This document shows positions 2-21,493 of a stretch of 64,000 nucleotides of DNA, piece by piece. The translations under genes and the position numbers were made by a program. Location: positions 2,818 to 66,817 of the forward strand of contig JBDRIT010000251.1 of assembly GCA_043815665.1 (NCBI GenBank), written 5' to 3'. How positions within the stretch are numbered: position 1 is the stretch's first letter; every line of letters begins with the position of its first letter. The notes under the pieces are model-generated. The model was not told the DNA's origin and ran no database searches. It saw nothing but the letters and a program-made list of their open reading frames with translations. This DNA is from Pseudomonadota bacterium. Lineage in GTDB: Bacteria > Myxococcota_A > UBA9042 > CAIXZC01.

Positions 2-3000
2 GTGGACGACGACTGCAACGGCGAGATCGACGACATCGCGCCCGAGCCCTGCGACATTGAGAACGAATGGGGCACCTGCCCGGGCGAGAGCGGCTGCGAA
101 GACGGGGAGTGGGTGTGCCTCGGCGAGGCGCCCCTCCTGGACTTTTGCAACGGCAAGGATGACGACTGCGACGGGGAGACCGACGAAGAGTCCCCGGACA
201 CGGACGGGGACGGGATCAAGGACTGCGTGGACCCGGACGATGACAACGACGGAGTCTTGGACGAACTGGACAACTGCCCCCTGCTCCCCAACCCCTTCCA
301 GGAGGACGAGAGCGACCATGACAACATCGGCGAGGTCTGCGACGCGGACGATGACAACGACACCGCGCCGGACGAAGGACCCGACGATGTAGTGGACTGT
401 GGACCGTTCGATGACACGATATATCCGGGTGCGGACGAATCATGCAACGGCATCGACGACGACTGCGACGGGGAGACCGATGAGGAATTCCCGGACACAG
501 ACGGGGACGAAATCAAGGATTGTCTGGACCCGGACGATGACGGTGACGGCGTCCTGGACCTGGACGATAACTGCCCCCTCGTCGCCAACCCGGGTCAGGA
601 GAACAACGATCTGGTCGATCAGGGCGACGCGTGCGACCCGGACGACGACAACGATCTGATCGGGGACGAGCAGGACAACTGCCCGTTCGTGGAAAACGGA
701 ACCCAGAGCGACCTGGACAGCGACGGCCTCGGGGACGCCTGCGACCCGGACCAGGACGGCGACGGTGTGGCGAACGGGTTGGACAACTGTGCCTCGCTGT
801 GGAACCCGGAGCAGCTCGACACCGATGGGGACGGGGACGGGGACGCGTGTGACACGGACCAGGACGGCGACGGGATCCAGGACGCGGTGGACAACTGCCC
901 GCTGGTTGTGAACCCGAACCAGTTGGACCTGGACGAGGACGGCCTCGGGGACAAATGCGATGACGACATGGACGGGGACGGTGTCGTGAACACAGAGGAC
1001 AACTGCCGCATGGAGCCCAACGGGGCGAACCAGCTGGCCCCGGACGGTAACCAGGCAGACTCGGACGGCGACTGCGAGGACGAGGGACCGCCTCCGTACG
1101 GAACGGATCCAACGTGCGGGAACGCGTGCGATGACGATGACGACAACGACGGGCTGCTCGACATGGTGGACAACTGCCCCTGGATCTCCAATCCGGACCA
1201 GCTCAACTCCGACACGGATGGGAACGGGGACGCGTGCGACGACGACGACGACGAGGACGGTGTTCTCGATCCGGACGACAACTGCCCCCTCGTCCCCAAC
1301 CCAACGCAGAAGGACACCAACGGGAACGGCGTAGGGGACGCGTGCGACTGGGATAACGACGGGGACGGGATCCTCGATGAGGACGACAACTGTCCCACGG
1401 TGGCCAACGGCCCGAACGAGCCCCCGCCGGAGGGGAACCAGGCCGATTTCCCGGACGGGGACGGGCTGGGCAACGCGTGCGACCTGGACGACGACGGGGA
1501 TGGTGTCAAAGACGTGTCAGACAACTGTCCGTGGACCCAGAACCCTTCTCAGGAGGACACCGACCAGGACGGGCTGGGCGACGTGTGCGACCTGGATGAC
1601 GACGACGATGAGATCCTCGACGTCGAGGACAACTGCCCCGTCACGTTCAATACGGACCAGGTGGACACCGACGGGGACGACTGGGGCGACGCGTGCGACC
1701 CGGACGACGACGACGACAACATCCCTGACACCACGGACAACTGCCCCCTCGATGTCAATCCGAACCAGGCGGACGCGCCGGACGGGGACGGCCTGGGCGA
1801 CGTGTGCGACATGGACGACGACGACGACGGCGTCCAGGACGGAGACGACAACTGCCCCAAGGTAGAGAACTTCTGGCAGGCAGACCTGGACGGCGACGGT
1901 CTGGGGGACGCGTGCGACGACGACATTGAGAATGACGGAAAGAAGAACGACTTCGACAACTGTCCCTTCGTGTACAACCCGAACCAGGACAACCTCGACG
2001 GGGATGGCCTGGGCGACGTGTGCGACCCGGACGACGACGGGGACCAGGTATCGGACGATCAGGACAACTGCCCCGTGATCCCGAATACAGACCAGGCCGA
2101 CACGGACGGGGACGGCCTGGGGAATATCTGCGATGCCGATGACGACGACGATGGGATCCCCGACGACGGGAACCAGAACGGGCTCACCACCGACGCACCC
2201 TGCGCGACAGGCCAGACCGTGGGCTGCGACGACAACTGCACCCTCACCCCGAACCCGGACCAGACCGACAGCAACGGGAACGGCAAAGGCGATGCATGCG
2301 AGTGCGACCCGGACAACGACGGCGTCGCGTCCCCGGCGGAGAACTGCGATCCGGAGACGCCTGACAACTGCCCCTTCATCTGGAACCCGGGCCAGATCGA
2401 TACCGATGGCGACGGTGCGGGCAACGCGTGCGATCCTGACGACGACGGGGACGGGGTGCTGGACGACGGCGACTGGAGCGGCGTCGCCGGAGACGCTCCC
2501 TGCGTGACCGGGGAGACCATCGGGTGCGACGACAACTGCGTCCTCGTTCCCAACCCCGACCAGACCGACCAGGACGGCGACGGCCTCGGGGACGCGTGCG
2601 ACGGAGACCTGGATGGCGACGGGATCGCCAACGCGCTGGACAACTGTCCTGCGACCCCGAACTCCGGGCAGGCGAATAACGACGGGGACGGCCTGGGCGA
2701 CGCATGCGATCCCGACGACGACGACGACGGCGTCCCGGATGCGGCAGATAACTGTCCCATTGTTCCCAACCCTGGTCAGGTGGACACCGACGGGGACGAA
2801 GAGGGCGACGCGTGCGACTCTGACTGGGACGGCGACGGCATCGCCAACGGCGTGGACAACTGCCCCCTCGCCTTCAACCCAAACCAGGGCAACCAGGACG
2901 GTGACGCGGCCGGGGACGCGTGCGATCCGGACGACGACAACGACGGCGTCCAGGACGGGGAGGACAACTGTCCCTTCCTGCCGAATCCGGCCCAAACCAA

Positions 3001-5311
3001 TGCCGACGGAGACCCCTGGGGCGACGCTTGCGACGAGGACGACGACGGCGACGGGATCCTCGACCTGGTGGACAACTGCAAGCTCATTCCGAACCCGAGC
3101 CAGTCAGACAACGATGGCGACGGTGCTGGCGACGCGTGCGATCCCGATGACGACAACGACGGCGTCCCGGACACGAACGACAACTGCCCCTTCGAGCCGA
3201 ACTCGTCCCAGGCGGACTTCGACGGAGACGGCTGGGGTAACGCCTGCGACGAGGACGACGATGGCGACGGGATCCCCGACGCCGAGGACAAGTGTCCGCT
3301 GCTCCCCTGCCAGGGGGACATCTCGGTCTGCCAGCTCGACACGGACGGCGACGGGGCCGCGAATCCCTGCGACCCGGACGACGACAACGACGGCGTTGCA
3401 GATGGGCCAGACAACTGTCCCCTGATCTGGAACCCGGAGCAGGGGGACTTCAGCGGCAACGGCGTCGGAGACGCGTGCGACTTCGACTGGGACGGCGACG
3501 GGGATCCGAACTCCACGGATTGCGGGCCCTGGGACCCGGACCGGTACACCGGTGCGGTCGAGATCTGCGACGGCAAGGACAACGACTGCAATGGGATCAT
3601 TGATGATGCGGGCAGCGGGGGCTGCACGACCTGGTACCAGGACGGTGACGGAGATGGCGTGGGCACCGCGTCTCAGAAGTGCCTCTGCACGTCCTCCTAC
3701 CCCTATCTCGCCCAGGAGACCGGGGATTGCAACGACGCGGATCCCGCCGTGGCCCCGGGAAAGACCGAGTACTGCGACGGCAAGGACAACGACTGCGACG
3801 GCCAGGTGGACGAGGACGGAGTCAACGGCTCGCCCTACTACCTGGACGCGGACGGGGACCAGTGGGGCGTAGCGGGGGACTCGGTGACCTCCTGCGAGCC
3901 CGTCGGCGCGTACACGGCCGTCCTCGTGGGAGACTGCGACGACTCGGACCTCTCGGTCTATCCCGGCGCGGTGGAGCAATGCGGCGACGGGAAGGACAAC
4001 GACTGCGACGGTGCGACCGACGAGCCGGGTGCGGCCGGCTGCGTCCCGGTCTACCAGGACTCCGATGGTGACGGCTGGGGCAACCATGCGGTGGTGAACT
4101 GCCGATGCCTGACCGGCATGGGGACCGCACCCGCAGGCTGGGCCCTGAAGCCCGGCGACTGCGCGATCGTCGATCCCGCTGTGAACCCGGACGCGGACGA
4201 GGCCTGCGACGGAAAGGACAACGACTGCGACGGAGCGATCGACGAGCCGGCCGCCGAGACGGACGTCTGTCCCGGGACCTACACGAAGTACTACCGGGAC
4301 ATGGACGGGGACGATGCCCCGGCCCAGGCCTACACCAAGTGCCTCTGCGGACCGGCAGGACAGTTCGACATCCCAGCTTCCGTCGCGGAGGTCGGAGACA
4401 TCTGGGACTGCAACGACAACAATGGCTCGATCAGCCCCTTCGCAGCCGAGAAATGCAACGGGATCGACGACGACTGCGACGACGATGTGGACGAGGCGAA
4501 GGACCCCGTGGGTGGGGGCTGCGCGAACGGCTACCTGATCCACCATGTGGACAACGATGAGGACAACTACGGCTGGGACGGCGTGCACCCGGACTATACC
4601 GCGCAGTTCGGAGTTTCCGTCAAACCCACCCTCTGCCTCTGCGGGCCAAAGGACATCGCGTACGGGATGGGCAGCGCGCATTATGAACCGACCAGCGCCC
4701 TGCCGGACTGCAACGACGAGGACGAGAACATCAACCCCGGTGCCCTGGAGGACTGCTCGACCGGGTCGATCGACGAGAACTGCAACAACATCTATAACGA
4801 GGAGAACGGGGTCGCGTGCCACTGGTACACTGTTGATGGCGACAGCGACCTGTACGGCTGGAACGGCCTCCATCCCCCGCGGGACGAGGCGCTCCTCGAG
4901 CGGTGCTTCTGTGGCCCTTCGGGGTACTACAAGACCCAGACCTCGGACATCATCCCCGGCGACGACGATTGCTATGACGAGAACGCGGATGTGTTCCCTG
5001 GAAACGTAGCGTGGTTCACAGAACCCATCTTCGGAATGGGCGGTTGGGACTACGACTGTGATGGCGGGGTCTCCTACGAGCTTCCCAGGGGGACCGGCAA
5101 CTGCGTCATATATTGTTCGGTGTGGCCATACTGCTGTCCCTGCTGCAAGTGGGAGGGTGGACCCTGGAGCGATGACTGCGGGTTCGGCAATGCGGATTGC
5201 GGCGTGTGGGGCAAATGGCCGACCGGCTGCGCATGTTGTGTGAACTCCTGCGGGCAGTCGGGGCTCTGCGCAGATATGGGTCTCGTAGACAAGCAGCAGA
5301 AGTGTCACTAG
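2..5311 (+). CDS. Giant secreted calcium-binding repeat protein, 5'-truncated by the window edge. It has ~30 thrombospondin type-3 repeats (DNCPxxxNPxQxDxDGDGxGDACD), then MopE-like motifs (DCNDxDPxxxPGAxExCDGKDNDCDG), then a Cys/Trp-rich C-terminal module.
   Basis: Single uninterrupted 1769-codon frame running off the 5' edge. Regular 36-39 aa TSP3 periodicity is visible in the translation, as are the MopE-like motifs. The C-terminal module (CCPCCKWEGGPWSDDCGFGNADCGVWGKWPTGCACC) is paralogous to the C-terminus of 5570..11095. Confidence 0.85.
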   Translation: MDDDCNGEIDDIAPEPCDIENEWGTCPGESGCEDGEWVCLGEAPLLDFCNGKDDDCDGETDEESPDTDGDGIKDCVDPDDDNDGVLDELDNCPLLPNPFQEDESDHDNIGEVCDADDDNDTAPDEGPDDVVDCGPFDDTIYPGADESCNGIDDDCDGETDEEFPDTDGDEIKDCLDPDDDGDGVLDLDDNCPLVANPGQENNDLVDQGDACDPDDDNDLIGDEQDNCPFVENGTQSDLDSDGLGDACDPDQDGDGVANGLDNCASLWNPEQLDTDGDGDGDACDTDQDGDGIQDAVDNCPLVVNPNQLDLDEDGLGDKCDDDMDGDGVVNTEDNCRMEPNGANQLAPDGNQADSDGDCEDEGPPPYGTDPTCGNACDDDDDNDGLLDMVDNCPWISNPDQLNSDTDGNGDACDDDDDEDGVLDPDDNCPLVPNPTQKDTNGNGVGDACDWDNDGDGILDEDDNCPTVANGPNEPPPEGNQADFPDGDGLGNACDLDDDGDGVKDVSDNCPWTQNPSQEDTDQDGLGDVCDLDDDDDEILDVEDNCPVTFNTDQVDTDGDDWGDACDPDDDDDNIPDTTDNCPLDVNPNQADAPDGDGLGDVCDMDDDDDGVQDGDDNCPKVENFWQADLDGDGLGDACDDDIENDGKKNDFDNCPFVYNPNQDNLDGDGLGDVCDPDDDGDQVSDDQDNCPVIPNTDQADTDGDGLGNICDADDDDDGIPDDGNQNGLTTDAPCATGQTVGCDDNCTLTPNPDQTDSNGNGKGDACECDPDNDGVASPAENCDPETPDNCPFIWNPGQIDTDGDGAGNACDPDDDGDGVLDDGDWSGVAGDAPCVTGETIGCDDNCVLVPNPDQTDQDGDGLGDACDGDLDGDGIANALDNCPATPNSGQANNDGDGLGDACDPDDDDDGVPDAADNCPIVPNPGQVDTDGDEEGDACDSDWDGDGIANGVDNCPLAFNPNQGNQDGDAAGDACDPDDDNDGVQDGEDNCPFLPNPAQTNADGDPWGDACDEDDDGDGILDLVDNCKLIPNPSQSDNDGDGAGDACDPDDDNDGVPDTNDNCPFEPNSSQADFDGDGWGNACDEDDDGDGIPDAEDKCPLLPCQGDISVCQLDTDGDGAANPCDPDDDNDGVADGPDNCPLIWNPEQGDFSGNGVGDACDFDWDGDGDPNSTDCGPWDPDRYTGAVEICDGKDNDCNGIIDDAGSGGCTTWYQDGDGDGVGTASQKCLCTSSYPYLAQETGDCNDADPAVAPGKTEYCDGKDNDCDGQVDEDGVNGSPYYLDADGDQWGVAGDSVTSCEPVGAYTAVLVGDCDDSDLSVYPGAVEQCGDGKDNDCDGATDEPGAAGCVPVYQDSDGDGWGNHAVVNCRCLTGMGTAPAGWALKPGDCAIVDPAVNPDADEACDGKDNDCDGAIDEPAAETDVCPGTYTKYYRDMDGDDAPAQAYTKCLCGPAGQFDIPASVAEVGDIWDCNDNNGSISPFAAEKCNGIDDDCDDDVDEAKDPVGGGCANGYLIHHVDNDEDNYGWDGVHPDYTAQFGVSVKPTLCLCGPKDIAYGMGSAHYEPTSALPDCNDEDENINPGALEDCSTGSIDENCNNIYNEENGVACHWYTVDGDSDLYGWNGLHPPRDEALLERCFCGPSGYYKTQTSDIIPGDDDCYDENADVFPGNVAWFTEPIFGMGGWDYDCDGGVSYELPRGTGNCVIYCSVWPYCCPCCKWEGGPWSDDCGFGNADCGVWGKWPTGCACCVNSCGQSGLCADMGLVDKQQKCH
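240..3500 (+). repeat. Intragenic array of thrombospondin type-3 calcium-binding repeats (~108-117 nt units) in the first giant gene.
   Basis: Periodic DNCPxxxNPxQxDxDGDGxGDxCD units in the translation. GAC/GGC-rich DNA periodicity. Confidence 0.8.
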
Positions 5312-5569: not shown

Positions 5570-8500
5570 ATGATGAGATTCGGATACCGGCAAGGAGTTG
5601 CGGCCCTGGTCCTCCTCTGCGTGTTCGCCTCGTGCAGCCCTGACAAGGCCGACCGGGACCCTGGGACGGACGCGGATCGTGGGGATCTGCCGGGAGTCTT
5701 CGAGGTGGTCATCGGTGGCGACGGCGTTCCTGATCATGGGAGTTCGGACACCGGCGTAGTTCCTGGAATGGACACGCCGGGCTGGCCGGACGTTGCACCG
5801 GACTGCCAGGCCGGGGTTGGCGGCTTCGGGTGTCCGTGTGACACGGACGACGAGTGCATCCACGGCTTCTGCTTCGAGACGCCGGAGGGTGAGGTCTGCA
5901 GCCAGACCTGTCTGACCGAGTGCCCGGACGGGTGGACCTGTGAGCTGGTTTGTGCGGGGGAGAGCTGCCAGTACGTCTGTGTGCCGCGGTTCCCCAGGCT
6001 CTGCCGGCCCTGCGCGTCCCATGAGGACTGCCAGGACGTCCTCGGAGGGGGGGACGACCTCTGTGTCTCTGCCGGATCGATGGACGCCGGCTCGTTCTGC
6101 GGTGGGGGATGCGACGGCGATGGGGGCTGCCCGGCCGGGTTCGTCTGCGTCCCGATCGGTGTGGATGCGGCGACTGGACAGTGCATCCTGGAGGCGGGGG
6201 AGTGCGGATGCACGGACTGGTACGCGGAGCAGGAGATCTGGACCCCATGCTCGAAGGAGAACGAGTGGGGAACCTGTGACGGTGTGCGGACCTGCGGCCC
6301 GGAGGGCCTGACCCCCTGTGACGCGCCCGCGCCGGTCGCGGAGGTGTGCAACCTGACGGACGACGACTGCAACGGCGCTGTGGACGACATTGCGGCGCAG
6401 ACCTGTGTGCTCGAGAACGAGTACGGCGGCACCGAGGGGCAGCTCGTCTGCATCGACGGCGAGGCGGTCTGCCTGCCGGACGAGGTCCCGGCCGCAGAGG
6501 TTTGCGACGGCCTGGACAACGACCTGGACGGAGCGACGGACGAGGGCTTCCCGGACACGGACGGCGACGAGGACGCGGACTGCGTGGACGGGGATGACGA
6601 CGACGACGGGATCACTGACGGGGAGGACGTCTGTCCCCTCCTGTCGAATCCTGACCAGGCGGACAACGACCTGGATACCTGGGGCGACGCGTGCGATCCG
6701 GACGACGACAACGACGGCATCGAAGACGGCGAGGACTGCGCACCGTTTCTCCCCTGGATCTACCCAGGCGCGATCGAGGTCTGCGACGGGTGGGACAACG
6801 ACTGCGACGACAAGATCGACGAGGGCTTCTCCGACGCGGACGACGACGGAACCCCGGACTGCCTGGAGACCGACGATGACGACGACGGGGTTCCGGACGA
6901 TGTCGATAATTGCCCGATCGTGGCCAACCCCGGCCAGGAGAACCTGGACGGGGACCAGACCGGGGACGCATGTGATCCGGACGTGGACGGAGACGGCGTG
7001 ATCAACGAAGCGGACCTGTGTCCCACGCTGCCGAATCCGGACCAGGCGGACTTCCCGGACTCCGACGGGATCGGAAACGCATGTGATGACGATGACGACG
7101 GTGATGGCGTGACGGACGACGAGGACAACTGTCCCCTGGAGAGCAACCCCGGCCAGGGGGACATGGACGGGGACGGCCTCGGGGATGCCTGCGAGGCTGA
7201 CATGGACGGGGACGGGATCGCGGACGGCGCGGACAACTGCCCGGAGGTCCCGAACCCGACCCAGGTGGACGCGGATGGGGACTGGATCGGGGACGCGTGC
7301 GACGCGGACGCGGACAACGACGGGATCCCGGACGATGGGGACAACTGTCCCCTGGTGTTCAACCCTGGCCAGCTCAACAACGACACGGACCCCTGGGGGG
7401 ATGCTTGCGACGACGACGACGACGATGACGGCTACCCGGATCCCTTCGACAACTGCCCCCTGACGGACAACCCCCTCCAGACCAATATGGACAACGACGC
7501 CTGGGGCAACGCGTGTGACGATGACGACGACAACGACGGGGTGCCGGACGGGGAAGACAACTGTCCGTGGATCCCGAACCCGAACCAGGCGGACGCGAAC
7601 AACGACGGCACCGGGGACGCCTGCTCGGGAGACATGGACGGCGACGGCGTGCCCGACGGGCAGGACAACTGCTCGGACGTCCCGAACCCTGACCAGGCCG
7701 ATGCGGACGGCGATGTCCTCGGGGATGCGTGCGACAAGGACGACGACGACGATGGCGTCCCCGACACCGAAGACAACTGTCAGCTGGTCCCGAACGGGCC
7801 CGGCATCGCCCCCCCGCAGGGGGACCAGGGCGACACGGACGGGGACGGCCAGGGGGACGCGTGCGACGCGGATGACGACAACGACGGCGTCCTGGACGAG
7901 GTGGACAATTGCCCATTCGACGCCAACCCGGACCAGACCGATCTCGACGATGACCTGCTCGGAAACGCGTGCGACAAAGACGACGACAACGACGGGCTCA
8001 AGGACGGCGTAGACAACTGCCCCTTCGTGCCGAACCCCGGCCAGGAAGACGAGGACGGGGACGGCATCGGCGACGCGTGCGACGGGGACGCGGACGGCGA
8101 CGGGGTGCCGGACGAGTCTGACAACTGCTTGTGGGTCCCGAACCCCACCCAGGACAACAACGACGGTGACGGTGCCGGGGACGCGTGCGATGACGACGAC
8201 GACAACGACGGCGTCATCGCCGACGCGGACAACTGCCCCTTCGGGCCGAATCCCGGCCAGGAGAACTCGGACACGGACGGGATCGGCGACGCGTGCGACG
8301 ACGACCTGGACAACGACGGCGTGCCGGATGCCTCCGACAACTGCCCGTGGGTCGCGAATCCGCTCCAGGCTGACACGGACGGGGACGGCCTGGGGAACAC
8401 CTGCGACGATGACGACGATGGCGACCTGATCCCGGACGTGGTGGACAACTGCGTCCTCACCTTTAACCCATACCAGGAGGACGCGGACGGGGACGGAATC

Positions 8501-11095
8501 GGCGACGCGTGCGAGTGGGACCCGGACGGGGACGGGGTCGGCGTCGGCGACAACTGCCCGCTGCACGCGAACCCATCACAGGCCGACGCAGACGAGGACG
8601 GCGCAGGGGATGCGTGCGACGGGGATGACGACAACGACGGTCTCCCCGACGATTCTGACAATTGCACCACCACACCGAACCCGGACCAGGCCGATCTGGA
8701 CGGTGACGGCCAGGGGGACGCGTGCGACGGCGACGACGACGGTGACGGCGTCCCGGATGGTTCAGACAACTGCCCGGCGGTCGCGAACAGTGTCACACCC
8801 GGCGAGGCCCAGCCCGACACGGACGGCGACGGACAAGGGAACGCGTGCGACACGGACGACGACGGGGACAGCGTCCCTGACGGTGCGGATCACTGCCCCC
8901 TCGTCCACGATCCCCTGAACATCGACACAGACGGGGACGGCCTGGGGGACGCGTGCGACGGCGACGACGACGACGACGGGCTCCAGGACGTGGCGGATAG
9001 CTGCCCCGCTGTATACAACCCGGACCAGGAGGACGCGGACGGGGACGGCATCGGCGACGCGTGCGATGGTGACGACGACGGGGACGGAGTCCCGGATGGT
9101 GCGGACAACTGCCCGTCCGCAGCGAACCTGGGCCAGTTGGACACGGACGGGGACGGTGCGGGCGACGTATGCGATTCTGACGATGACAATGACACGATCC
9201 TCGACCCCATGGACAACTGCCCCCTCGCCGCGAACCCGGACCAGATGGACGCGGACGGTGATGGGGTCGGCGATGCATGTGCCGCAGACGACGACGGCGA
9301 CGGGGTCGCTGACTCAGTGGACAACTGCCCCCTGGTTGCGAACCCGTCCCAATCGAACGTGGATGGAGACGTCGCGGGCGACGCGTGCGACGACGACGAC
9401 GACGGCGACGGCGACCCGGACGGGACCGACTGCGCACCTCTCGATTCCTCGATGCACCACGGCGCGGCAGAGGCCTGCAACGGAGAAGACGACAACTGCG
9501 ACGGCGTCACCGATCCCCAGGACGCGTCCGGCTGCGTGGACTACTACCGGGACTTCGACGACGACGGCTGGGGCGTCGTGGGGGACACCCTCTGCCTCTG
9601 CGGAGTCTTCGACCCGTACACCACGACGAAGTCCGGAGACTGCCACGACGCGAACCCGGCGGTGCACCCGGAGGCGGGAGAGAACTGCGACACGGTCTAC
9701 GACGACGACTGCGACGGCGCCACCAACGAGGACGGCGCGGCGAACTGTAACCTGTACTACCTGGATGCGGACGGGGACGGTTACGGGCACCTGACGGACA
9801 AGATGTGTCTCTGTGCGCCGAGCGGATTCTACTGCGAGCAGAACAACATGGATTGCGACGACGGAAACGGCCTGGTGCACCCGGGGGTGCCGGAGCAATG
9901 TCCGGCCTCCATCGACTATGATTGCGACGGGAACGGCAACGAGGAGAACGCGCTGGGCTGCGGCTGGTATTACTACGACGGAGACGAGGACGGCCACGGC
10001 CATCCGTCGAATCGAAAGTGCTTTTGCGCGCCGGTCCCAGCGATCAAGTACGACACGACCACCAATGACGACTGCAACGACGGAAACGGACAGATCTATC
10101 CCGGGGCGACCGAGAAATGCCCCGCCTCGGTGGACTACGACTGCGACGGGAACGGGAACGAGGAAGGCGCGACCAACTGCAGTTGGTTCTACTTCGACGG
10201 CGATGAAGACGGTCACGGGCACCCCACGAACAAGAAGTGCTTCTGCGCCGCGGTGCCGGCAATCAAGTACGACGTGACCATCAACGACGACTGCAATGAC
10301 GGGAACGGGCAGATCTATCCCGGGGCGACCGAGAAATGTCCTGCCTCCGTGGACTACGACTGCGACGGGAACGGGAACGAGGAAGGTGCGACCGGCTGCA
10401 CCTGGTTCTACTACGACGGCGACGGCGACGACTACGGTCATCCGACCAATAAAAAGTGCTACTGCGCACCCAGCGGGCTCTACAACGAGACAGACAACCT
10501 CGACTGCAACGACACCTGCTCCACCATGCACCCCGGCCTGCCCGAGACCTGCGCCACGCCGTACGACGACAACTGCGACGGCAAAACCGGCATGTTCGAG
10601 CAGGCCATCGGCTGCCAGAACTACTACCAGGACAAGGACGGGGACGGATGGGGCGGGGGTCCCCCCCGTTGCCTGTGCCCGAACTCGCCGGACACGAAGA
10701 AGGCACTGGGCGGGAAGTGGACCGTCACAAAGGGCGGGGACTGCTGCGACATATCGGGAGCGGCTCACGTCTACCCCGGGGCCGGGTTCTCCACGTCCGA
10801 CAACCCGTGTGTGCCCAATGATACCTGGGTGGAGCGTTGGGACCTGAACTGCGATGGAGTTGTCGAGAAGCAGTATTCGAGCATGTGGGGCTGTTCTCAT
10901 GAGGCAGGCTGTTGCTGCTATCTTATCAAATGTGAAGCATGGTCGGGATGGGCTGGGAGCGGAATTCCGGAATGCGGAGTCACCGATACTTGGGGCGAGT
11001 GGTATAACGGATCATGCAGTTATTGGTGGAATTTCGGGTGTATTTCCTCATGCTGGCTGGCAACCCCGACACAGAACCAACAAAGATGCCGGTGA
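5570..11095 (+). CDS. Giant lipoprotein (1841 aa). Order of parts: lipoprotein signal, conserved N-terminal Cys-rich module, ~70 TSP3 repeats, ~9 MopE-like repeats, Cys/Trp-rich C-terminal module.
   Basis: N-terminus MMRFGYRQGVAALVLLCVFASC has a hydrophobic core plus a lipobox-like Cys. The N-terminal module (FGCPCDTDDECIHGFC...PRFPRLCRPC...NEWGTCDG...DDDCNG) recurs in four genes of this window. TSP3 and MopE-like motifs are read directly from the translation. Confidence 0.85.
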   Translation: MMRFGYRQGVAALVLLCVFASCSPDKADRDPGTDADRGDLPGVFEVVIGGDGVPDHGSSDTGVVPGMDTPGWPDVAPDCQAGVGGFGCPCDTDDECIHGFCFETPEGEVCSQTCLTECPDGWTCELVCAGESCQYVCVPRFPRLCRPCASHEDCQDVLGGGDDLCVSAGSMDAGSFCGGGCDGDGGCPAGFVCVPIGVDAATGQCILEAGECGCTDWYAEQEIWTPCSKENEWGTCDGVRTCGPEGLTPCDAPAPVAEVCNLTDDDCNGAVDDIAAQTCVLENEYGGTEGQLVCIDGEAVCLPDEVPAAEVCDGLDNDLDGATDEGFPDTDGDEDADCVDGDDDDDGITDGEDVCPLLSNPDQADNDLDTWGDACDPDDDNDGIEDGEDCAPFLPWIYPGAIEVCDGWDNDCDDKIDEGFSDADDDGTPDCLETDDDDDGVPDDVDNCPIVANPGQENLDGDQTGDACDPDVDGDGVINEADLCPTLPNPDQADFPDSDGIGNACDDDDDGDGVTDDEDNCPLESNPGQGDMDGDGLGDACEADMDGDGIADGADNCPEVPNPTQVDADGDWIGDACDADADNDGIPDDGDNCPLVFNPGQLNNDTDPWGDACDDDDDDDGYPDPFDNCPLTDNPLQTNMDNDAWGNACDDDDDNDGVPDGEDNCPWIPNPNQADANNDGTGDACSGDMDGDGVPDGQDNCSDVPNPDQADADGDVLGDACDKDDDDDGVPDTEDNCQLVPNGPGIAPPQGDQGDTDGDGQGDACDADDDNDGVLDEVDNCPFDANPDQTDLDDDLLGNACDKDDDNDGLKDGVDNCPFVPNPGQEDEDGDGIGDACDGDADGDGVPDESDNCLWVPNPTQDNNDGDGAGDACDDDDDNDGVIADADNCPFGPNPGQENSDTDGIGDACDDDLDNDGVPDASDNCPWVANPLQADTDGDGLGNTCDDDDDGDLIPDVVDNCVLTFNPYQEDADGDGIGDACEWDPDGDGVGVGDNCPLHANPSQADADEDGAGDACDGDDDNDGLPDDSDNCTTTPNPDQADLDGDGQGDACDGDDDGDGVPDGSDNCPAVANSVTPGEAQPDTDGDGQGNACDTDDDGDSVPDGADHCPLVHDPLNIDTDGDGLGDACDGDDDDDGLQDVADSCPAVYNPDQEDADGDGIGDACDGDDDGDGVPDGADNCPSAANLGQLDTDGDGAGDVCDSDDDNDTILDPMDNCPLAANPDQMDADGDGVGDACAADDDGDGVADSVDNCPLVANPSQSNVDGDVAGDACDDDDDGDGDPDGTDCAPLDSSMHHGAAEACNGEDDNCDGVTDPQDASGCVDYYRDFDDDGWGVVGDTLCLCGVFDPYTTTKSGDCHDANPAVHPEAGENCDTVYDDDCDGATNEDGAANCNLYYLDADGDGYGHLTDKMCLCAPSGFYCEQNNMDCDDGNGLVHPGVPEQCPASIDYDCDGNGNEENALGCGWYYYDGDEDGHGHPSNRKCFCAPVPAIKYDTTTNDDCNDGNGQIYPGATEKCPASVDYDCDGNGNEEGATNCSWFYFDGDEDGHGHPTNKKCFCAAVPAIKYDVTINDDCNDGNGQIYPGATEKCPASVDYDCDGNGNEEGATGCTWFYYDGDGDDYGHPTNKKCYCAPSGLYNETDNLDCNDTCSTMHPGLPETCATPYDDNCDGKTGMFEQAIGCQNYYQDKDGDGWGGGPPRCLCPNSPDTKKALGGKWTVTKGGDCCDISGAAHVYPGAGFSTSDNPCVPNDTWVERWDLNCDGVVEKQYSSMWGCSHEAGCCCYLIKCEAWSGWAGSGIPECGVTDTWGEWYNGSCSYWWNFGCISSCWLATPTQNQQRCR
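6560..9410 (+). repeat. Intragenic TSP3 repeat array (~70 units) in gene 5570..11095.
   Basis: Same motif periodicity. Approximate boundaries estimated from the translation. Confidence 0.75.
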
Positions 11096-14000
11096 GTAAT
11101 ATAATACAAAAGACGCAGGGCGGCTCCGTCCAACGGTCGGTCTCCCGCGGGCTCGACCCCAAGTCGGCATCGCCCTGGCCTGGACAGCGACTCTTCGTTG
11201 CTTTGATGCTGCTGTCATGGGTTGGATGCATGAGGCCGATATCACCGGACAATGAGATCACCTCGGATTCAATTGGATTCGACACCATCCTTGAGGCTGG
11301 TATACCGGATTTCGCCATGCTTGATTGCGGGATTCCGGATGCCTATTCGGAGATGGAATTCCCAATCGATGCCCTGTCCGAGCACAACGAGGGACAGGAT
11401 TTCTTTGCAGCCGACGGTTTGCCTCTCGAGTGCCCGGGCGGCTTTCGCTGCCCCTGTGACGTCAATGATGAGTGCGACAGTGGATACTGTGTGGAAACAC
11501 CGGACGGGAAGCGCTGTACCCGGATCTGCATGGAGGGCTGTCCCCCGGCCCACCTCTGCATGACCGTGGAAGAAACCTGCCCGGACTGCGTGCAGATCTG
11601 TGTGCCCGCGTTTCCGGAGCTCTGCCGGCCCTGCTCCAATGACGCGGAGTGCGGGTCCATGATCCAGGACCTGGACAACCGGTGCCTCCCCCTCGGCGGG
11701 CCGGAACAGGGGAGCTTCTGCGGCGGGGACTGCTCCGGTGCAGCGACCTGCCCTGATGGCCACTCCTGCGTCGAGGTGGAGGCGCTGGCGGGGAACCTGG
11801 TGCAGCAATGCGTTCCTGACGATGCCACTTGCGAATGTACCGGAAAGTACATCGAGGAGGGCGCCTCGACCTCCTGCCAGCAGGTGAACGAGCACGGGGC
11901 CTGCCCGGGGCAGAGGGTGTGTGTAGCGGACGGCCTGAGCCCCTGCGACGCGCCCGCTGCCGAGGCCGAGATCTGCGACGCGTTCGACAACGACTGTTCG
12001 GGCGTCGTGGACGACGTCTCGCCGAAGGTGTGCGTCCTCGATAACGTCTACGGCGCCTGCGAAGGACACACCGAGTGCACCGGCGGTCAGGAGATCTGCG
12101 TCGGCAAGGTCCCGACCGGCGAAGCCTGCGATCTTCTGGACAACGACTGCGACGGCGAGACCGACGAGGTCTGCGCGGACCTGGACGGGGACGGCACGCC
12201 GGATCTCCTGGATCCGGATGACGACGGCGACGGGATCCCGGAGGACGGTGGCGGGAGCGGGATCGACGGTGACGCCCCCTGCGACGACGGCCAGACGGCA
12301 GGCTGCGACGACAACTGCCCCGTCACTCCGAACGACGGGCAGGTGGACACGGACGGGGACGGGTTCGGGAACGCGTGTGACGGCGACGACGACAACGACG
12401 GGGATCCGGACGAGAGCGATTGTGCCTCCTTGGTTTCGAGCATCAGCGTGAACGGCTTCGAGGTCTGTAACGGGATCGACGACGACTGTGACGGGAAGGC
12501 GGATGAGGGCTTCGTCGATACGGACGTGGACGGCGTCGCGGACTGTGTGGACGAGGATACGGACGGGGACGACGTCCTCGACGGCATGGACAACTGCGCG
12601 GCGGTGTCGAACAAGGGTCAGGAGGACTTCGACGGGGATGGGGAGGGGGACGCTTGCGACCCGGACGCGGACGGGGACTTCGTGCTTGATACCATTGACA
12701 ACTGCCTGTTCTTTCTCGCCAACGCGCAGACCGACACCGACGACGACGGCCAGGGCGATCCCTGCGATCCGGACGACGACGGGGACGATGTCATGGATGT
12801 CGAGGACAACTGTCCCCTTGAGGAGAACCCCGAACAGGCGGACGAGGACCTGGACGGGTACGGCGATGTCTGCGACTTCGATCTGGATGGCGATAACATC
12901 GTCAACGCGGCAGACAACTGTCCCGGGGATACCAATTGGGATCAGGCGGACTTCGACGAGGACGGCCTCGGGGATCCCTGCGACCCGGACGCGGACGGCG
13001 ACGGCGCGCTGGACGGAACGGACAACTGCCCGATGCTGCCGAACCCGGGCCAGGAGGACTTCGAAGGGGACGGCCTCGGTGACCCCTGCGACTCGGACGA
13101 CGACAATGACCTGATCCCGGACGTGGTGGACAACTGCGTCTACCAGATCAACCCAAAGCAGGTGGACTCGGACTTCGACAACGAGGGGGACGAGTGCGAC
13201 GCCGATGACGACAACGACGGCGTGCTTGACGGGTCGGACAACTGCCCGACGGTCCCGAACCCGGACCAGGCGAATGCGAACGGGACCGGCCCCGGGGATG
13301 CGTGCGAGGGGGACGCAGACGGGGACGGGCTCCCCTTCGAGGATGACAACTGCCCACTGGTCTTCAATCCGGGCCAGGAGGACCTGGACGGGGACTCGTC
13401 GGGAGACGCATGCGACCCGGACGATGACGGGGACGAGGTGGCGGACGTCCTCGACAACTGCCCCCATACGCCCAACGGCTATGGCTGGGGCGGGGACGGG
13501 CAGACCGACACGGACGGGGATGGGGACGGGGATGCGTGCGACGACGACGACGACGACGACGGCGTGTCCGATGAAGAGGACAACTGTCCCGCGGTCAAGA
13601 ACTCCGATCAGGAGGACAATGAAGGAGACGGCCTGGGGGACGCATGCGATCCCGACGACGACGATGACGGCGTCAAGGACAACGCGGACAATTGTCCGGT
13701 GACCGGGAACCCGAACCAGGAGGACGTCGACGGGGACGGCCTCGGAGACGCGTGTGAGGATGATCCGGATGGGGATGGCATCCCGAATGAGATGGACAAC
13801 TGTCCGGAGACCTGGAACCCGGACCAGACCAACACTGATCTCATCTGGGAGAACCAACCGGGGAGTGGTGTGGTGGCCGACGCCCTGGGGGACGCGTGCG
13901 ACCCGGACGATGACAACGACGGCTGGGGCGATTTCCAGGACAACTGCCCTGTGGTCCCGAACCCGGCTCAGCAGAACCAGGACCAGGACGGCCTGGGGGA

Positions 14001-15438
14001 CGCGTGCGACCCGGATGATGACAACGACGGGATCCCGGACGTGTCGGACGTCTGCGTATGGATCCCGGACCCGGAGCAGCAGGATCTCGACGGGGACGGT
14101 CTGGGGGATGCATGTGATCCGGACGACGACGACGACGGCTGGGGCGACCTCCAGGACAACTGCCCGTTCACGTGGAACCCGGAGCAGATTGACCTGGACG
14201 GCGATGGTACTGGCGATGCCTGCGAGTGGGATCCGGACAACGACGGTGTCGGCGGTGACGTGGACAACTGCCCCTTGACTCCGAACTCGGGGCAGAAGGA
14301 CACTGACGGCGACGGTGTTGGTGATGCCTGCCAGGAGGACGACGACGCGGACGGCCTCGCGGACGACGTTGACAACTGCCCCTTGGCCGAAAACCCGGAG
14401 CAGGACGATCTGGATGGCGACGGGCTCGGCGATCTCTGCGACATCGATCGCGACGGGGACGGCCTCTCGAATGATTTCGACAACTGTCCGGATCTCATCA
14501 ACGGGGAGCAGGCAGATACCGATAGCGACGGCTTCGGAAACATGTGTGACGCGGACGACGACGACGACGGGGTCGAGGATGCCGTGGACAATTGCCCTCT
14601 CGTGAAAAACTCCGACCAGGAGAACCTGGACGGCGATGCATTGGGGGATGCCTGCGATCCGGATGACGACGGGGACTCGATCCCGAGTTTGCTGGACAAC
14701 TGCCCCGACACCACGAACCCCGACCAGATGGACCTCGACGGCGATGGAGCAGGGGACCTCTGCGACGACGATGATGATGGAGATGGTTCAGAGGACGTAT
14801 CCGACAATTGCCCGACCACCCCGAACCCCGGGCAGGAGGACCTGGACGACGACGGGGCGGGGAACCACTGCGACGATGACGACGACGGGGACGGGGTCTC
14901 GGATCTCGTGGACAACTGTCCCTGGACGCCAGGCGCCGACCAGTCGGACCTGGACGGCGACGGGCTGGGAGATGCGTGCGACGCGGACGATGACAATGAC
15001 GGGTTCCCGGACGTTGAAGACAACTGCCCGGAGACGGCGAACTGGAGCCAGGGGGACCTGGACGGCGACGGAATGGGCGACGGATGCGATCCGGATGACG
15101 ACGGGGACGGTGACCCGGATGTGACAGACTGCATGCCGCAGGAGCCGACGGTCCATCACGACGCGGCCGAGGTGTGCAATGGGCAGGACGACGACTGCGA
15201 CCAGTTCATTGATGAGGCAGGAGCAGGCGGCTGCACGACTTGGTGGAAAGATATCGACGCGGATGGATATGGAGTTTCGGGTGACACGATGTGCCGCTGT
15301 TCCAAGTTCTTTCCCTACACAGCGACCCAAGACGGGGACTGCGACGACTTCGACCCCTGGATGCATCCGGGTGCACCTGAAGTCTGTGGCAACTTCAAAG
15401 ACGATGATTGTGACCAGTCCGCAGACGAGGGGTGTTGA
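11086..15438 (+). CDS. Giant lipoprotein paralog (~1450 aa): signal with lipobox, N-terminal Cys-rich module, TSP3 repeat array, MopE-like repeats.
   Basis: Start chosen at ATG 11086 (MPVSNIIQKTQ...RLFVALMLLSWVGC). This gives a charged n-region plus a hydrophobic core ending in Cys. It overlaps the stop of the previous gene by 10 nt, which suggests translational coupling. The long ORF technically opens at 11014. Alternative starts are GTG 11092 or ATG 11206. Same conserved N-module (GFRCPCDVNDECDSGYC...AFPELCRPC...). Confidence 0.75.
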   Translation: MPVSNIIQKTQGGSVQRSVSRGLDPKSASPWPGQRLFVALMLLSWVGCMRPISPDNEITSDSIGFDTILEAGIPDFAMLDCGIPDAYSEMEFPIDALSEHNEGQDFFAADGLPLECPGGFRCPCDVNDECDSGYCVETPDGKRCTRICMEGCPPAHLCMTVEETCPDCVQICVPAFPELCRPCSNDAECGSMIQDLDNRCLPLGGPEQGSFCGGDCSGAATCPDGHSCVEVEALAGNLVQQCVPDDATCECTGKYIEEGASTSCQQVNEHGACPGQRVCVADGLSPCDAPAAEAEICDAFDNDCSGVVDDVSPKVCVLDNVYGACEGHTECTGGQEICVGKVPTGEACDLLDNDCDGETDEVCADLDGDGTPDLLDPDDDGDGIPEDGGGSGIDGDAPCDDGQTAGCDDNCPVTPNDGQVDTDGDGFGNACDGDDDNDGDPDESDCASLVSSISVNGFEVCNGIDDDCDGKADEGFVDTDVDGVADCVDEDTDGDDVLDGMDNCAAVSNKGQEDFDGDGEGDACDPDADGDFVLDTIDNCLFFLANAQTDTDDDGQGDPCDPDDDGDDVMDVEDNCPLEENPEQADEDLDGYGDVCDFDLDGDNIVNAADNCPGDTNWDQADFDEDGLGDPCDPDADGDGALDGTDNCPMLPNPGQEDFEGDGLGDPCDSDDDNDLIPDVVDNCVYQINPKQVDSDFDNEGDECDADDDNDGVLDGSDNCPTVPNPDQANANGTGPGDACEGDADGDGLPFEDDNCPLVFNPGQEDLDGDSSGDACDPDDDGDEVADVLDNCPHTPNGYGWGGDGQTDTDGDGDGDACDDDDDDDGVSDEEDNCPAVKNSDQEDNEGDGLGDACDPDDDDDGVKDNADNCPVTGNPNQEDVDGDGLGDACEDDPDGDGIPNEMDNCPETWNPDQTNTDLIWENQPGSGVVADALGDACDPDDDNDGWGDFQDNCPVVPNPAQQNQDQDGLGDACDPDDDNDGIPDVSDVCVWIPDPEQQDLDGDGLGDACDPDDDDDGWGDLQDNCPFTWNPEQIDLDGDGTGDACEWDPDNDGVGGDVDNCPLTPNSGQKDTDGDGVGDACQEDDDADGLADDVDNCPLAENPEQDDLDGDGLGDLCDIDRDGDGLSNDFDNCPDLINGEQADTDSDGFGNMCDADDDDDGVEDAVDNCPLVKNSDQENLDGDALGDACDPDDDGDSIPSLLDNCPDTTNPDQMDLDGDGAGDLCDDDDDGDGSEDVSDNCPTTPNPGQEDLDDDGAGNHCDDDDDGDGVSDLVDNCPWTPGADQSDLDGDGLGDACDADDDNDGFPDVEDNCPETANWSQGDLDGDGMGDGCDPDDDGDGDPDVTDCMPQEPTVHHDAAEVCNGQDDDCDQFIDEAGAGGCTTWWKDIDADGYGVSGDTMCRCSKFFPYTATQDGDCDDFDPWMHPGAPEVCGNFKDDDCDQSADEGC
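12180..15110 (+). repeat. Intragenic TSP3 repeat array in gene 11086..15438.
   Basis: Same motif periodicity. Approximate boundaries. Confidence 0.75.
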
Positions 15439-20800: not shown

Positions 20801-21493
20801 GCAGGTGCCGGCGTCGTTGGACTCCGCGCACTCCGTGGTGAGCTGCAGGAACTTGGAGAGCGCGGTGCACTGGCAGGCGCCCTCGGTCAGCCGGCACTGC
20901 TTGACGCTGGTGCCGTCCGGGGCCTCCGCGGTGACGCAGCCGTAGCCCGCGGGGCAGGTGTCGTCGCTGCAGTCGGCGCCGCAGAAGCTCCCGGCGTCTC
21001 CATAATCCAGGCAGAGGTCTACGCTCCCGCCCAGGATCGGCTGACACTCCGCGTGGTCCACGCAGGGCTGGCAGACCTTGTCGAACCGCGGCAGGCAGAG
21101 GTAGGTCACGTCCGGGGGCGTGGTGCTGACCGGCGCGCAGACGAAGTCGGCCGGGCACTCCTCCACGCAGGTCATGGTGCAGATCTTCTTCTCGCCGGTG
21201 AGGATGCAGTACCCGGAGTCACAGTCCTCCGGGTCGTCGCAGGGCCACCCGAATGCGCCGGGCTGGGGACCGCTGTCCCCGGCTCCGTCCGCGTACTGGT
21301 CCGGCTGGGCGTCGCCGGCGGGAGCGTCCGGCTCGCCGGCGTCATTGCCGATGATCGTGTCGCCGGTCGTGTCCTCCGGAGTCTCCGGGGTGTCCGTGGA
21401 GACCTTGCCCGCGCCGGTGCCGCACGCGGCCACGAGCAGGGCCGCCGCGGCCAGGGCGATGACGAGGGCGATGCGATTGAGATTCCGCAGCAT
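15460..21493 (-). CDS. Giant lipoprotein paralog (~2010 aa if read through) interrupted by a 1-nt frameshift near 19768..19772. Order of parts: lipoprotein signal, conserved N-module, a few TSP3 repeats, MopE-like motif, ~40 CxxCxxDxC-type Cys-rich repeats, then ~13 tandem ~55-aa repeats of unknown function.
   Basis: Two overlapping minus-strand ORFs (19316..21493 and 15460..20715) each contain sensible protein on one side and R/T/P-rich nonsense on the other. The sense portions join exactly at the G5 homopolymer (plus strand 19768-19772; C5 on the coding strand). Removing one base gives ...DPTCAQATCNPDTGACGVAPKNGGEICDDEDLC..., which is in register with the repeat motif. N-terminus MLRNLNRIALVIALAAAALLVAACG is a lipoprotein signal. 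Confidence 0.75.

What the first reader, a model, noticed from the sequence alone, without database searches (positions are those of the whole stretch)
5798..6420. Conserved ~200-aa N-terminal Cys-rich module shared by four giant lipoproteins
Four genes (5570, 11086, 21493 minus, 25062) begin with a lipoprotein signal and an acidic linker. They then share the same module: …CPCDxxDECxSGxCxETPxGxxCxxxCxxxCPxGWxCxxVxxxDPDVxxxCVPxFPxLCRPCxxxxxCxxxxGxxDxCxxxGxxGSFCGGxCxxxxxCPxGxxC…CxCTxxxxxxxTxCxxxNEWGxCxGxRxCxxxGLxPCDAxxPxxExCNxxDDDCNGxxDD. The fifth giant paralog (2..5311) is truncated at the window edge, so its N-terminus cannot be seen. The downstream repeat content is reshuffled between paralogs (TSP3 arrays, CxxCxxDxC repeats, MopE-like units, different C-terminal modules). 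This indicates a locally expanded, modular family with a common anchoring/targeting head. The module copies are at about 5798-6420, 11440-12000, 20500-21300 and 25230-25860.
Basis: seen in the sequence. Interest (0 to 1): 0.6.

Follow-up and report, generated by a model that had tools for sequence, protein, structure and literature searches.

The report
Conserved cysteine-rich head of giant lipoproteins
Four (probably five) neighbouring giant lipoprotein genes share a real, unannotated ~190-residue disulfide-rich domain just after their lipid-anchor signal; the same domain starts at least a hundred distinct giant proteins of uncultured Myxococcota, matches no solved structure, and has an unknown function.

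Summary
Exactly four full copies of a ~190-aa module lie at 5819-6388, 11437-12015, 20690-21259(-) and 25287-25865. They are 45-49% identical, with 23-25 conserved Cys. With every Cys masked, pairwise E is still 4e-12 to 1e-23. Each copy follows a lipobox signal and a 54-69 aa acidic tether that is predicted disordered. The edge-truncated fifth gene keeps the module's last 10 residues.

The module is composite. It has two homologous 8-Cys units (A, B; hhalign 96.7%), a third hairpin unit (C), and a MopE-type acidic motif at its end. Pfam and NCBIfam recognise only that final motif. AlphaFold models are confident (pLDDT 93, pTM 0.85), and Foldseek finds no PDB neighbour.

The profile finds 109 proteins with a full head among the best 150 cluster representatives. 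There is always one head per protein. All but one start by residue 129, and nearly all follow a lipobox. Named relatives come from Myxococcota MAGs.

The paralogs are old: g4's head is 60-68% identical to heads in other MAGs. No conserved partner gene was found.

Best reading (inferred): a constant membrane-proximal, disulfide-locked base carrying variable Ca-binding stalks and distal domains. A targeting role is untested. It is a new domain family of moderate interest.

The parts
5570..11095 (+). g1: 1841-aa lipoprotein. Order: signal, acidic tether, head, extra hairpin/MopE unit, ~24 TSP3 repeats, MopE-type units, Trp/Cys-rich C-terminus.
   Evidence: Translation; Pfam TSP_3 625 bits and Cu-binding_MopE 88 bits; GC3 0.84
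5570..5635 (+). g1 signal peptide with lipobox (…LLCVFAS|C, Cys22)
5636..5818 (+). g1 acidic tether, 61 aa (13 D+E, 3 K+R, 19 P+G)
5819..6388 (+). g1 head module (190 aa, 28 Cys). Unit A 5828-5989, unit B 5999-6190, unit C plus MopE-type acidic motif 6191-6388.
   Evidence: Profile hit of 196 bits over hmm 2-190; sub-unit HMM hits; AF2 pLDDT 93.3, pTM 0.85
6395..6544 (+). g1 extra copy of the hairpin + MopE-type unit (repeat of the unit C tail)
   Evidence: hmm 141-190, iE 2e-6
11086..15438 (+). g2: 1450-aa lipoprotein with head and ~23 TSP3 repeats. Its start overlaps the g1 stop by 10 nt. Atypical signal: 35-aa n-region, WVG|C lipobox at Cys48.
11437..12015 (+). g2 head module (193 aa, 28 Cys). 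Unit A 11449-11607, unit B 11617-11820. An extra hairpin/MopE unit follows at 12028-12168.
15460..21493 (-). g3: one ~2010-aa lipoprotein gene read in two frames because of a 1-nt frame break in a C5 run. Order: head, hairpin/MopE unit, 2 TSP3, Dicty-type Cys repeats, repeat-rich C-terminal region.
20690..21259 (-). g3 head module (190 aa, 25 Cys). Unit A 21089-21250, unit B 20888-21076. An extra hairpin/MopE unit lies at 20537-20680. Signal 21422-21493 (LVAA|C, Cys24); tether 21260-21421 (54 aa).
25062..28046 (+). g4: 994-aa lipoprotein (NCBI MFH1533223.1, 'hypothetical protein'). Order: head, Dicty-type Cys repeats, three CGxDGCGGxCGxC units, endostatin-like C-terminal domain.
25287..25865 (+). 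g4 head module (193 aa, 26 Cys). Unit A 25299-25457, unit B 25467-25667. Signal 25062-25109 (SFAA|C, Cys16). Tether 25110-25286 (59 aa, pLDDT 52-64).
   Evidence: second AF2 model: residues 71-300 pLDDT 89-97, residues 21-70 pLDDT 52-60
2..187 (+). g0 (2-5311, cut by the window edge): last 10 residues of a head (VDDDCNGEIDD, 2-34), then the extra hairpin/MopE unit (38-187)
   Evidence: g0 aligns with g1 at 41% identity over 1848 columns
38393..38518 (-). Stand-alone A-type 8-Cys unit inside a different Cys-rich lipoprotein (ORF 37877-39322, lipobox LIAA|C)
   Evidence: Unit-A HMM iE 1.4e-9, 32.7 bits; translation

Best explanation
The module is a previously unannotated, compact, disulfide-locked extracytoplasmic domain of about 190 aa with about 13 disulfides. 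It forms the constant membrane-proximal base of a polymorphic family of giant lipid-anchored surface or matrix proteins of Myxococcota.

Proposed sequence of events:
1. The precursor is exported by Sec and lipidated at the lipobox Cys. (The signal is shown. Lipidation is inferred.)
2. A 45-120 aa acidic Gly/Asp/Ala/Pro-rich tether stays disordered. (Predicted.)
3. The head, the first folded part to emerge, is oxidised into a rigid block. It consists of two tandem homologous 8-Cys hairpin units (A, B), a third hairpin unit (C), and an acidic E-x-C-N-x-x-D-D-D-C-N-G-x-x-D-D loop that probably binds Ca2+. (The architecture is shown. Oxidation and Ca binding are inferred.)
4. This block caps and starts the long Ca-binding stalk (TSP3, MopE-type or Dicty-type repeats). 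The stalk carries the variable distal domains that do the specific job. In g4 that is an endostatin-like C-type-lectin-fold domain. In g3 it is a repeat-rich region. In g0 and g1 it is a Trp/Cys-rich domain.

On this reading the head is conserved because it is the structural and folding start of the molecule next to the anchor. It is not itself the anchor.
For: - Four full copies, plus the tail of a fifth, each directly after lipobox and tether.
- AF2 models of two different paralogs are confident over the head (pLDDT 93.3 with pTM 0.85; 89-97 over residues 71-300) and low over the tether (52-64). The high pTM argues for one packed unit rather than beads on a string.
- Units A and B are homologous, with all 8 Cys in register (hhalign 96.7%, E 3.9e-10; cross-hits of the A and B HMMs).
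- The 23 Cys that are invariant in 27 diverse heads, plus two more that are nearly invariant, point to structural disulfides.
- Across the family, 109 of the best 150 cluster representatives carry exactly one full head. The median start is residue 81. At least 88 have a regex lipobox. The linker median is 60 aa, rich in G, D, A and P.
- 70 of the 109 repeat the partial unit (hmm ~25-190) 1-15 times internally. The building blocks therefore behave as generic structural repeats, and only the first ~25 residues are specific to the head.
- The tails differ between paralogs: TSP_3, Dicty_CTDC, and an endostatin-like domain (E 5.8e-6).
- The terminal acidic motif matches PF11617 in 25 of 27 heads. 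A MopE-like motif in the teneurin C-rich domain (PMC3278476) binds three Ca2+, two of them with TSP3-like coordination, in the crystal structure (PMC9058538).
- No conserved partner gene lies within +/-6 kb in 68 loci.
Against: - Nothing here measures localisation, lipidation, disulfides or Ca binding.
- A purely structural role does not by itself explain why the full A-B-C arrangement is restricted so strictly to one copy at the N-terminus.
- Non-Cys residues such as NLCRPC, GSFCG and NExGxCxGxR are strongly conserved, which could mark an interaction surface.
- The top-150 list is ranked by score, so it over-represents proteins with many internal repeats.
- No coordinates could be inspected, so packing and disulfide pairing rest on summary confidence values only.
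Confidence: 0.45

Rival explanations
1. Export or retention determinant. The head is recognised by, or acts as a folded stopper for, an outer-membrane route that puts these lipoproteins on the cell surface. The acidic tether crosses the membrane and the head sits outside. Loose analogies are the RcsF linker threaded through OMPs, Slam-dependent surface lipoproteins, the Bacteroidota lipoprotein export signal, and the LapA retention module.
For: - Strict position: one head per protein, always just after lipobox and tether, in 108 of 109 representatives.
- The head is kept while the tails are swapped. That is the pattern of polymorphic secreted proteins, whose constant end serves delivery.
- The tether is long enough (median 60 aa) and acidic.
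Against: - No conserved neighbouring gene for a translocon or partner in 68 loci.
- No conserved short motif after the lipid Cys. The +2 residue is simply G or S (A7 consensus).
- Most of the head (units B and C) also occurs as internal repeats far from any N-terminus.
- None of the named analogies was tested.
Confidence: 0.2
2. Binding or oligomerisation module. The head binds a common ligand (own exopolysaccharide, LPS, peptidoglycan or a partner protein), or it brings several chains together. The N-terminal oligomerisation region of thrombospondins and COMP does the latter upstream of their TSP3 repeats.
For: - Conserved non-Cys motifs (NLCRPC, GSFCG, NExGxCxGxR) across 27 diverse heads.
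- A very acidic surface: 33-36 D+E against 5-8 K+R.
- The overall layout, Cys-rich region then TSP3 array then lectin-like end, resembles thrombospondins (plus textbook knowledge).
Against: - No similarity to any known binding or oligomerisation domain by Pfam, NCBIfam, PDB sequence search or Foldseek.
- Being next to the anchor is a poor position for reaching external ligands.
Confidence: 0.2
3. No special role. The head is simply the first, slightly diverged copy of the generic A'-B-C structural repeat of 'MopE-related' giant proteins. It is retained by descent together with the signal peptide, while recombination swaps the 3' parts of the genes.
For: - Internal repeats cover hmm ~25-190 in 70 of 109 relatives (sequence of P0084).
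- A and B are duplicates.
- An A-type unit occurs elsewhere on its own.
Against: - The window proteins have lost all internal A'-B-C repeats yet keep the head at 45-49% identity over long divergence. g4-type heads are 60-68% identical between MAGs. This indicates selection on the head itself.
- The first ~25 residues are never found in internal copies.
Confidence: 0.15

Closest known systems
'MopE-related proteins' / Pfam PF11617 (Cu-binding_MopE, putative metal-binding motif)
   Same: The last ~20-30 residues of the head (ExCNxxDDDCNGxxDD) are this motif. 25 of 27 heads match it. NCBI names two full-length relatives 'MopE-related protein [Myxococcota bacterium]'. The motif recurs downstream in g0, g1 and g3.
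   Different: PF11617 covers only 30 residues. The preceding ~165 residues (units A and B and the hairpin of C) match no model. MopE's copper site was not examined. The acidic motif looks like a Ca2+ loop rather than a Cu site.
Thrombospondin / COMP family (animal extracellular matrix)
   Same: The order of parts is similar: a Cys-rich disulfide module, then a long array of Ca-binding TSP type 3 repeats (23-24 in g0-g2), then a globular C-terminal domain. g4 ends in an endostatin-like domain, another animal-matrix module.
   Different: The head is not an EGF-like domain (no Pfam hit; best hEGF E 0.27) and no TSP_C domain was found. The proteins are lipid-anchored at the N-terminus. There is no evidence of oligomerisation. 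The likeness is in layout, not in membership.
Myxococcus xanthus TraA/TraB and MtsC surface proteins
   Same: These are myxobacterial cell-surface proteins built from Cys-rich stalk repeats (TraA) or TSP3 repeats (TraB, MtsC) (PMC6372800, PMC12475490). The NCBIfam MtsC model scores 706-939 bits on g0-g2.
   Different: The MtsC score comes only from the TSP3 arrays (7-11 stretches, whose best stretches cover profile 89-266 of 428). The defining MYXO-CTERM tag is absent. The window proteins are anchored by an N-terminal lipobox instead. The head has no counterpart in those proteins as far as the profile libraries show.
Small invertebrate and fungal Cys-rich repeats (Lustrin_cystein PF14625, DUF7107 PF23416, EB module PF01683, Dickkopf_N PF04706)
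   Same: Unit B gives faint sub-threshold matches: 9, 8, 5 and 3 of 25 members, with best E 0.027, 0.0069, 0.84 and 0.043. This reflects a shared 'PC-x5-DC…C' start.
   Different: All matches are below the gathering scores, and Foldseek gives no support. Treat this as a lead only.
Teneurin C-rich domain
   Same: It shares the MopE-like D-N-D-x-D-G acidic Cys motif (PMC3278476). In teneurin-4 this motif binds three Ca2+, two of them in TSP3-like geometry, and stabilises the ectodomain (PMC9058538).
   Different: Only the ~20-residue motif is shared. The teneurin domain has 38 residues and 6 Cys, and it is not N-terminal.

Membership tests
Bacterial lipoproteins (Lgt / signal peptidase II substrates) | N-terminal signal peptide ending in a lipobox [LVI][ASTVI][GAS]-C | tested here: met
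   g1 …VFAS|C, g3 …LVAA|C and g4 …SFAA|C. g2 …SWVG|C is atypical, with a 35-aa n-region. The lipobox Cys is at least 90% conserved in a 46-sequence alignment. At least 88 of 109 relatives pass a regex.
Bacterial lipoproteins (Lgt / signal peptidase II substrates) | Actual lipidation and outer-membrane or surface location | not testable with these tools
   Needs experiment.
Pfam PF11617 Cu-binding_MopE (applies to the last ~30 residues of the head) | Profile match to the 30-residue motif | tested here: inconclusive
   25 of 27 isolated heads match at E<=5 (best 5.6e-6), but g1's own head gives no hit. Whole proteins g0, g1 and g3 pass the gathering score through downstream copies.
Pfam PF02412 TSP_3 | Profile match within the head | tested here: not met
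   No TSP_3 hit on any of 27 heads. The TSP_3 arrays lie downstream.
NCBIfam NF047638 MtsC (cell-cell cohesion MYXO-CTERM protein, equivalog) | Full-length match including the MYXO-CTERM sorting tag | tested here: not met
   Scores are above cutoff but come from 7-11 separate stretches (best stretches within profile 89-266 of 428), i.e. TSP3 repeats only. C-termini end …QNQQRCR, …QSADEGC and …DKQQKCH, with no hydrophobic-basic tag.
Any curated domain family covering units A, B and the hairpin of C (EGF-like, laminin EGF, Lustrin, EB, Dickkopf, DUF7107, myxobacterial Cys repeats) | Profile match at the family's threshold | tested here: not met
   Pfam-A and NCBIfam give nothing at E<=0.01 on the whole proteins outside TSP_3, MopE and Dicty_CTDC. 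The sub-unit scans give only sub-threshold hits.
Any solved protein fold | Sequence or structural similarity to a PDB chain | tested here: not met

The most novel reading that the evidence does not exclude
The head, together with the acidic tether, is the recognition or stopper element of an undescribed surface-display route for giant lipoproteins in Myxococcota. The tether crosses the outer membrane and the disulfide-locked head locks the protein on the outside. This would make the head a new kind of lipoprotein surface-export signal domain with a new fold.
Probability: 0.12. Interest if true: 0.7.

Novelty: new variant of a known kind. Interest (0 to 1): 0.4.

Why it matters
Giant Cys- and Asp-rich surface proteins are a large, almost unannotated part of the proteomes of uncultured aquatic Myxococcota. 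These bacteria are predatory or social, and their cell-surface biology is poorly known.

Defining this head gives three things:
- A clean family marker: one copy per protein, at the N-terminus, following a lipobox in nearly all relatives checked.
- A confident structural model that no solved structure in the PDB resembles.
- A handle for asking how proteins of 1000-4000 residues are anchored and displayed.

The combination with modules typical of animal extracellular matrix (TSP3, endostatin-like) is also of comparative interest. It does not by itself resolve an open question, and the function remains inferred.

Tried and rejected
- Known-family assignment. Pfam and NCBIfam scans of the whole proteins, of 27 isolated heads and of sub-units A and B found only the terminal MopE motif and sub-threshold noise.
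- PDB sequence search with the profile: one spurious hit at E 0.28.
- Conserved neighbours. All-against-all BLAST of ORFs in 68 related loci found no family shared across loci except the head proteins themselves and antisense artefacts.
- Synteny. tblastn of the window's pepF, Mur ligases, pheS, pheT and the C-terminal domains of g1, g3 and g4 against those loci returned no hit at all. No positive control was run, so I do not lean on this.
- MYXO-CTERM-like tails: only 3 weak regex matches in 109 relatives, none convincing.
- Literature searches for MtsC/MYXO-CTERM, for Myxococcota Cys-rich TSP3 proteins and for MopE/PF11617 found nothing describing this head.
- The search for related loci with the 27-sequence alignment failed because no conserved stretch was available. 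It was repeated with the 4-sequence alignment.
- The first six-frame HMM scan missed g1 because of a filter artefact on very long pseudo-sequences. It was redone on ORFs with --max.
Full report
**What is in the window.**
The window is 64-74% G+C. It comes from an NCBI MAG contig of 69,359 bp labelled 'Pseudomonadota bacterium' (locus tags ABIK09_). g4 is MFH1533223.1, 'hypothetical protein'.

Positions 2-28046 hold five very large genes:

| Gene | Coordinates | Size |
|---|---|---|
| g0 | 2-5311 (+) | cut by the window edge |
| g1 | 5570-11095 (+) | 1841 aa |
| g2 | 11086-15438 (+) | 1450 aa |
| g3 | 21493-15460 (-) | ~2010 aa |
| g4 | 25062-28046 (+) | 994 aa |

An M3 oligopeptidase gene lies between g3 and g4. 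Housekeeping genes (Mur ligases, pheS, pheT) follow g4.

g3 appears as two overlapping ORFs. The break is a single extra base in a C5 run at 19769-19773. Removing one C joins '…AQATCNP' to 'DTGACGV…'.

**Checking the observation.**
A profile of the module finds exactly four full-length copies, at 5822-6388, 11440-12015, 20690-21256(-) and 25287-25865, scoring 196-234 bits.
- They are 45-49% identical, with 54 invariant columns, 29 of which are not Cys.
- BLASTP of g1 against g4 gives 2e-44.
- With all Cys masked the six pairs still give E 4e-12 to 1e-23, and identity at non-Cys positions is 35-42%.

The similarity is therefore real homology and not just Cys spacing. LCRPC, GSFCG and N-[ED]-x-G-x-C-x-G hold in all four copies. 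'PRFP', 'NEWG' and 'CPC' hold only in some.

Each gene starts with a signal peptide ending in a lipobox Cys (g2's is atypical). An acidic linker of 54-69 aa follows, with 12-16 D+E against 0-3 K+R.

g0 begins with 'VDDDCNGEIDD', the last ten residues of the module. It then has the same extra hairpin/MopE unit that follows the head in g1-g3. So it was almost certainly a fifth member.

**Anatomy of the module.**
The head is composite.
- Residues 4-57 (unit A) and 60-125 (unit B) are homologous 8-Cys units. Profile-profile comparison gives 96.7% probability and E 3.9e-10, with all eight Cys in register. Each unit's HMM weakly hits the other's position.
- Residues 126-190 (unit C) are a CxC…TxC…NxxGxCxGxRxC…GLxxC hairpin. 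It ends in ExCNxxDDDCNGxxDD, which is the MopE-type motif PF11617 (25 of 27 heads).
- The hairpin-plus-motif part repeats once more directly after the head in g0-g3.
- An A-type unit also stands alone in another Cys-rich lipoprotein of the window, at 38393-38518(-), iE 1.4e-9.
- In 27 diverse heads, 23 Cys are invariant and two more nearly so.
- The heads are very acidic: 33-36 D+E against 5-8 K+R.

**Structure.**
AlphaFold2 with a 76-sequence alignment gives the g1 head pLDDT 93.3 and pTM 0.85. It is nearly all beta-hairpins. A second, independent model covers g4 residues 1-313:
- a signal helix at residues 3-11;
- a low-confidence tether (pLDDT 52-64 over residues 11-70);
- pLDDT 89-97 over residues 71-300, with the same order of secondary-structure elements.

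**Family and distribution.**
Pfam-A and NCBIfam recognise only TSP_3, Cu-binding_MopE and Dicty_CTDC in these proteins, and nothing over units A, B and most of C.

The word-indexed search returned 83 relatives. All are short fragments of 338 aa or less from MAGs. Those that carry a source name are labelled Myxococcota or 'Deltaproteobacteria'. All nine that I read in full, except two N-terminally truncated fragments, start with lipobox, tether and head.

The exhaustive search of 1.84 billion cluster representatives gave 9562 hits at E<=1e-3 and 2005 at E<=1e-30. Many of these come only from the repeated hairpin/MopE tail. Among the best 150:
- 109 carry a full head, never more than one;
- the head starts at residue 17-129 (median 81) in 108 of them;
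- at least 88 have a regex lipobox, and most of the twelve misses that were printed show lipobox variants by eye;
- the linker has a median of 60 aa and is rich in G, D, A and P;
- median protein length is 1562 aa, and the largest is 4398 aa.

Seventy of the 109 repeat a partial unit (profile ~25-190) 1-15 times internally (P0084). Only the first ~25 residues are therefore specific to the head.

The names given by sources are 'hypothetical protein' or 'MopE-related protein [Myxococcota bacterium]'.

In GTDB representative genomes, 68 loci were confirmed. Nearly all are from uncultured Myxococcota or 'Deltaproteobacteria' MAGs, and several of those MAGs are from lake, marine or groundwater samples. 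The best identity to the window is 47%.

**Age of the paralogs and genomic context.**
g4's head is 60-68% identical to heads in other MAGs but only 46-47% to g1 and g3. At least one of those relatives also continues into Dicty-type repeats (P0001). The paralogs are therefore old subfamilies and not a recent local burst. Clusters of two or three head genes recur in other MAGs (L002, L009, L020, L030, L031, L051, L056). No other gene family is conserved next to them.

**How it most likely works.**
Shown:
- The signal and lipobox.
- The acidic tether, predicted to be disordered.
- A compact, conserved, Cys-rich head made of duplicated units.
- A strict position of one copy at the N-terminus.
- Variable tails made of Ca-binding repeat arrays and different end domains. 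g4's last 167 residues match endostatin at E 5.8e-6.

Inferred:
- The protein is lipid-anchored and extracytoplasmic.
- The head is oxidised into a block of about 13 disulfides.
- Its terminal acidic loop binds Ca2+. By comparison, a MopE-like motif in the teneurin C-rich domain (PMC3278476) binds three Ca2+, two of them with TSP3-like geometry (PMC9058538).
- The head serves as the rigid, membrane-proximal start or cap of the stalk that displays the variable distal domains.

I give this 0.45. The rivals are an export or retention determinant (0.2), a binding or oligomerisation module (0.2), and a first repeat retained only by descent (0.15). None can be excluded with sequence tools. The strict N-terminal position and the conserved non-Cys motifs keep the first two alive.

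**Comparison with known systems.**
The proteins work like modular matrix or adhesin proteins. They recall thrombospondins in layout, and myxobacterial TraA, TraB and MtsC in their building blocks (PMC6372800, PMC12475490). They are not members of those families:
- The MtsC model is matched only through TSP3 repeats, and the MYXO-CTERM tag is missing.
- The head is not EGF-like by any profile.
- No solved fold matches.

The only curated element inside the head is the 30-residue PF11617 motif.

**Verdict.**
This is a real, well-delimited, widespread and so far unannotated domain. It is a good candidate for a new family entry and a structure determination. It is an undescribed variant within a known kind, namely Cys-rich modules of giant myxobacterial surface proteins. 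Its function is unproven. Interest is moderate (0.4).

Noticed in passing
window 19769-19773 (- strand), inside g3: g3 is split into two overlapping ORFs by one extra C in a run of five. Removing it restores a single ~2010-aa reading frame. This could be an assembly error, a recent pseudogene or slippage.
   Followed up: partly
window 27543-28043 (+), C-terminus of g4: The last 167 residues match endostatin (collagen XVIII NC1; PDB 1KOE and 1DY0) at E 5.8e-6 over residues 8-80. Pfam gave no hit there. An animal-matrix-type lectin-fold domain at the distal end of a bacterial lipoprotein.
   Followed up: partly
window 37877-39322 (-): Another Cys-rich lipoprotein (lipobox LIAA|C) with no Pfam hit. 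It contains a stand-alone A-type 8-Cys unit (38393-38518) and CGxDGCGGxCGxC units like those of g4 (about 27200-27510).
   Followed up: partly
window 15463-18003 (- strand), C-terminal third of g3: About 850 residues of a recurring motif (…FVVAWxS…QDG…GIYAQRF…) with no Pfam match. It looks like a large beta-propeller-type repeat domain.
   Followed up: no
window 11086-11095: The ATG assigned to g2 overlaps the end of g1 by 10 nt, which suggests co-transcription or coupling. With this start g2 has an unusually long 35-aa n-region and a WVGC lipobox, so the true start is uncertain.
   Followed up: partly
window 48472-55635 (-) and 55951-60303 (-): Two further giant ORFs (2387 and 1450 aa) with Big_13/FG-GAP and PPC domains respectively. 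They have no head module. The region is generally rich in huge surface-protein genes.
   Followed up: no
window 10500-11095 and 4700-5311 (C-termini of g1 and g0): A shared Trp/Cys-rich C-terminal domain (…CCCYLIKCEAWSGW… / …CCPCCKWEGGPW…) with no family match.
   Followed up: no
P0002, P0005, P0064, P0193, P0207 (public homologues): Many public homologues end in out-of-frame junk or are fragments of 338 aa or less. This family appears to be hard to assemble or to call correctly in metagenomes, so its true size is probably underestimated.
   Followed up: no
whole window: NCBI labels the source MAG 'Pseudomonadota bacterium', but every relative of the head genes that carries a meaningful name comes from Myxococcota or 'Deltaproteobacteria' MAGs. 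The label is probably too coarse or wrong.
   Followed up: no
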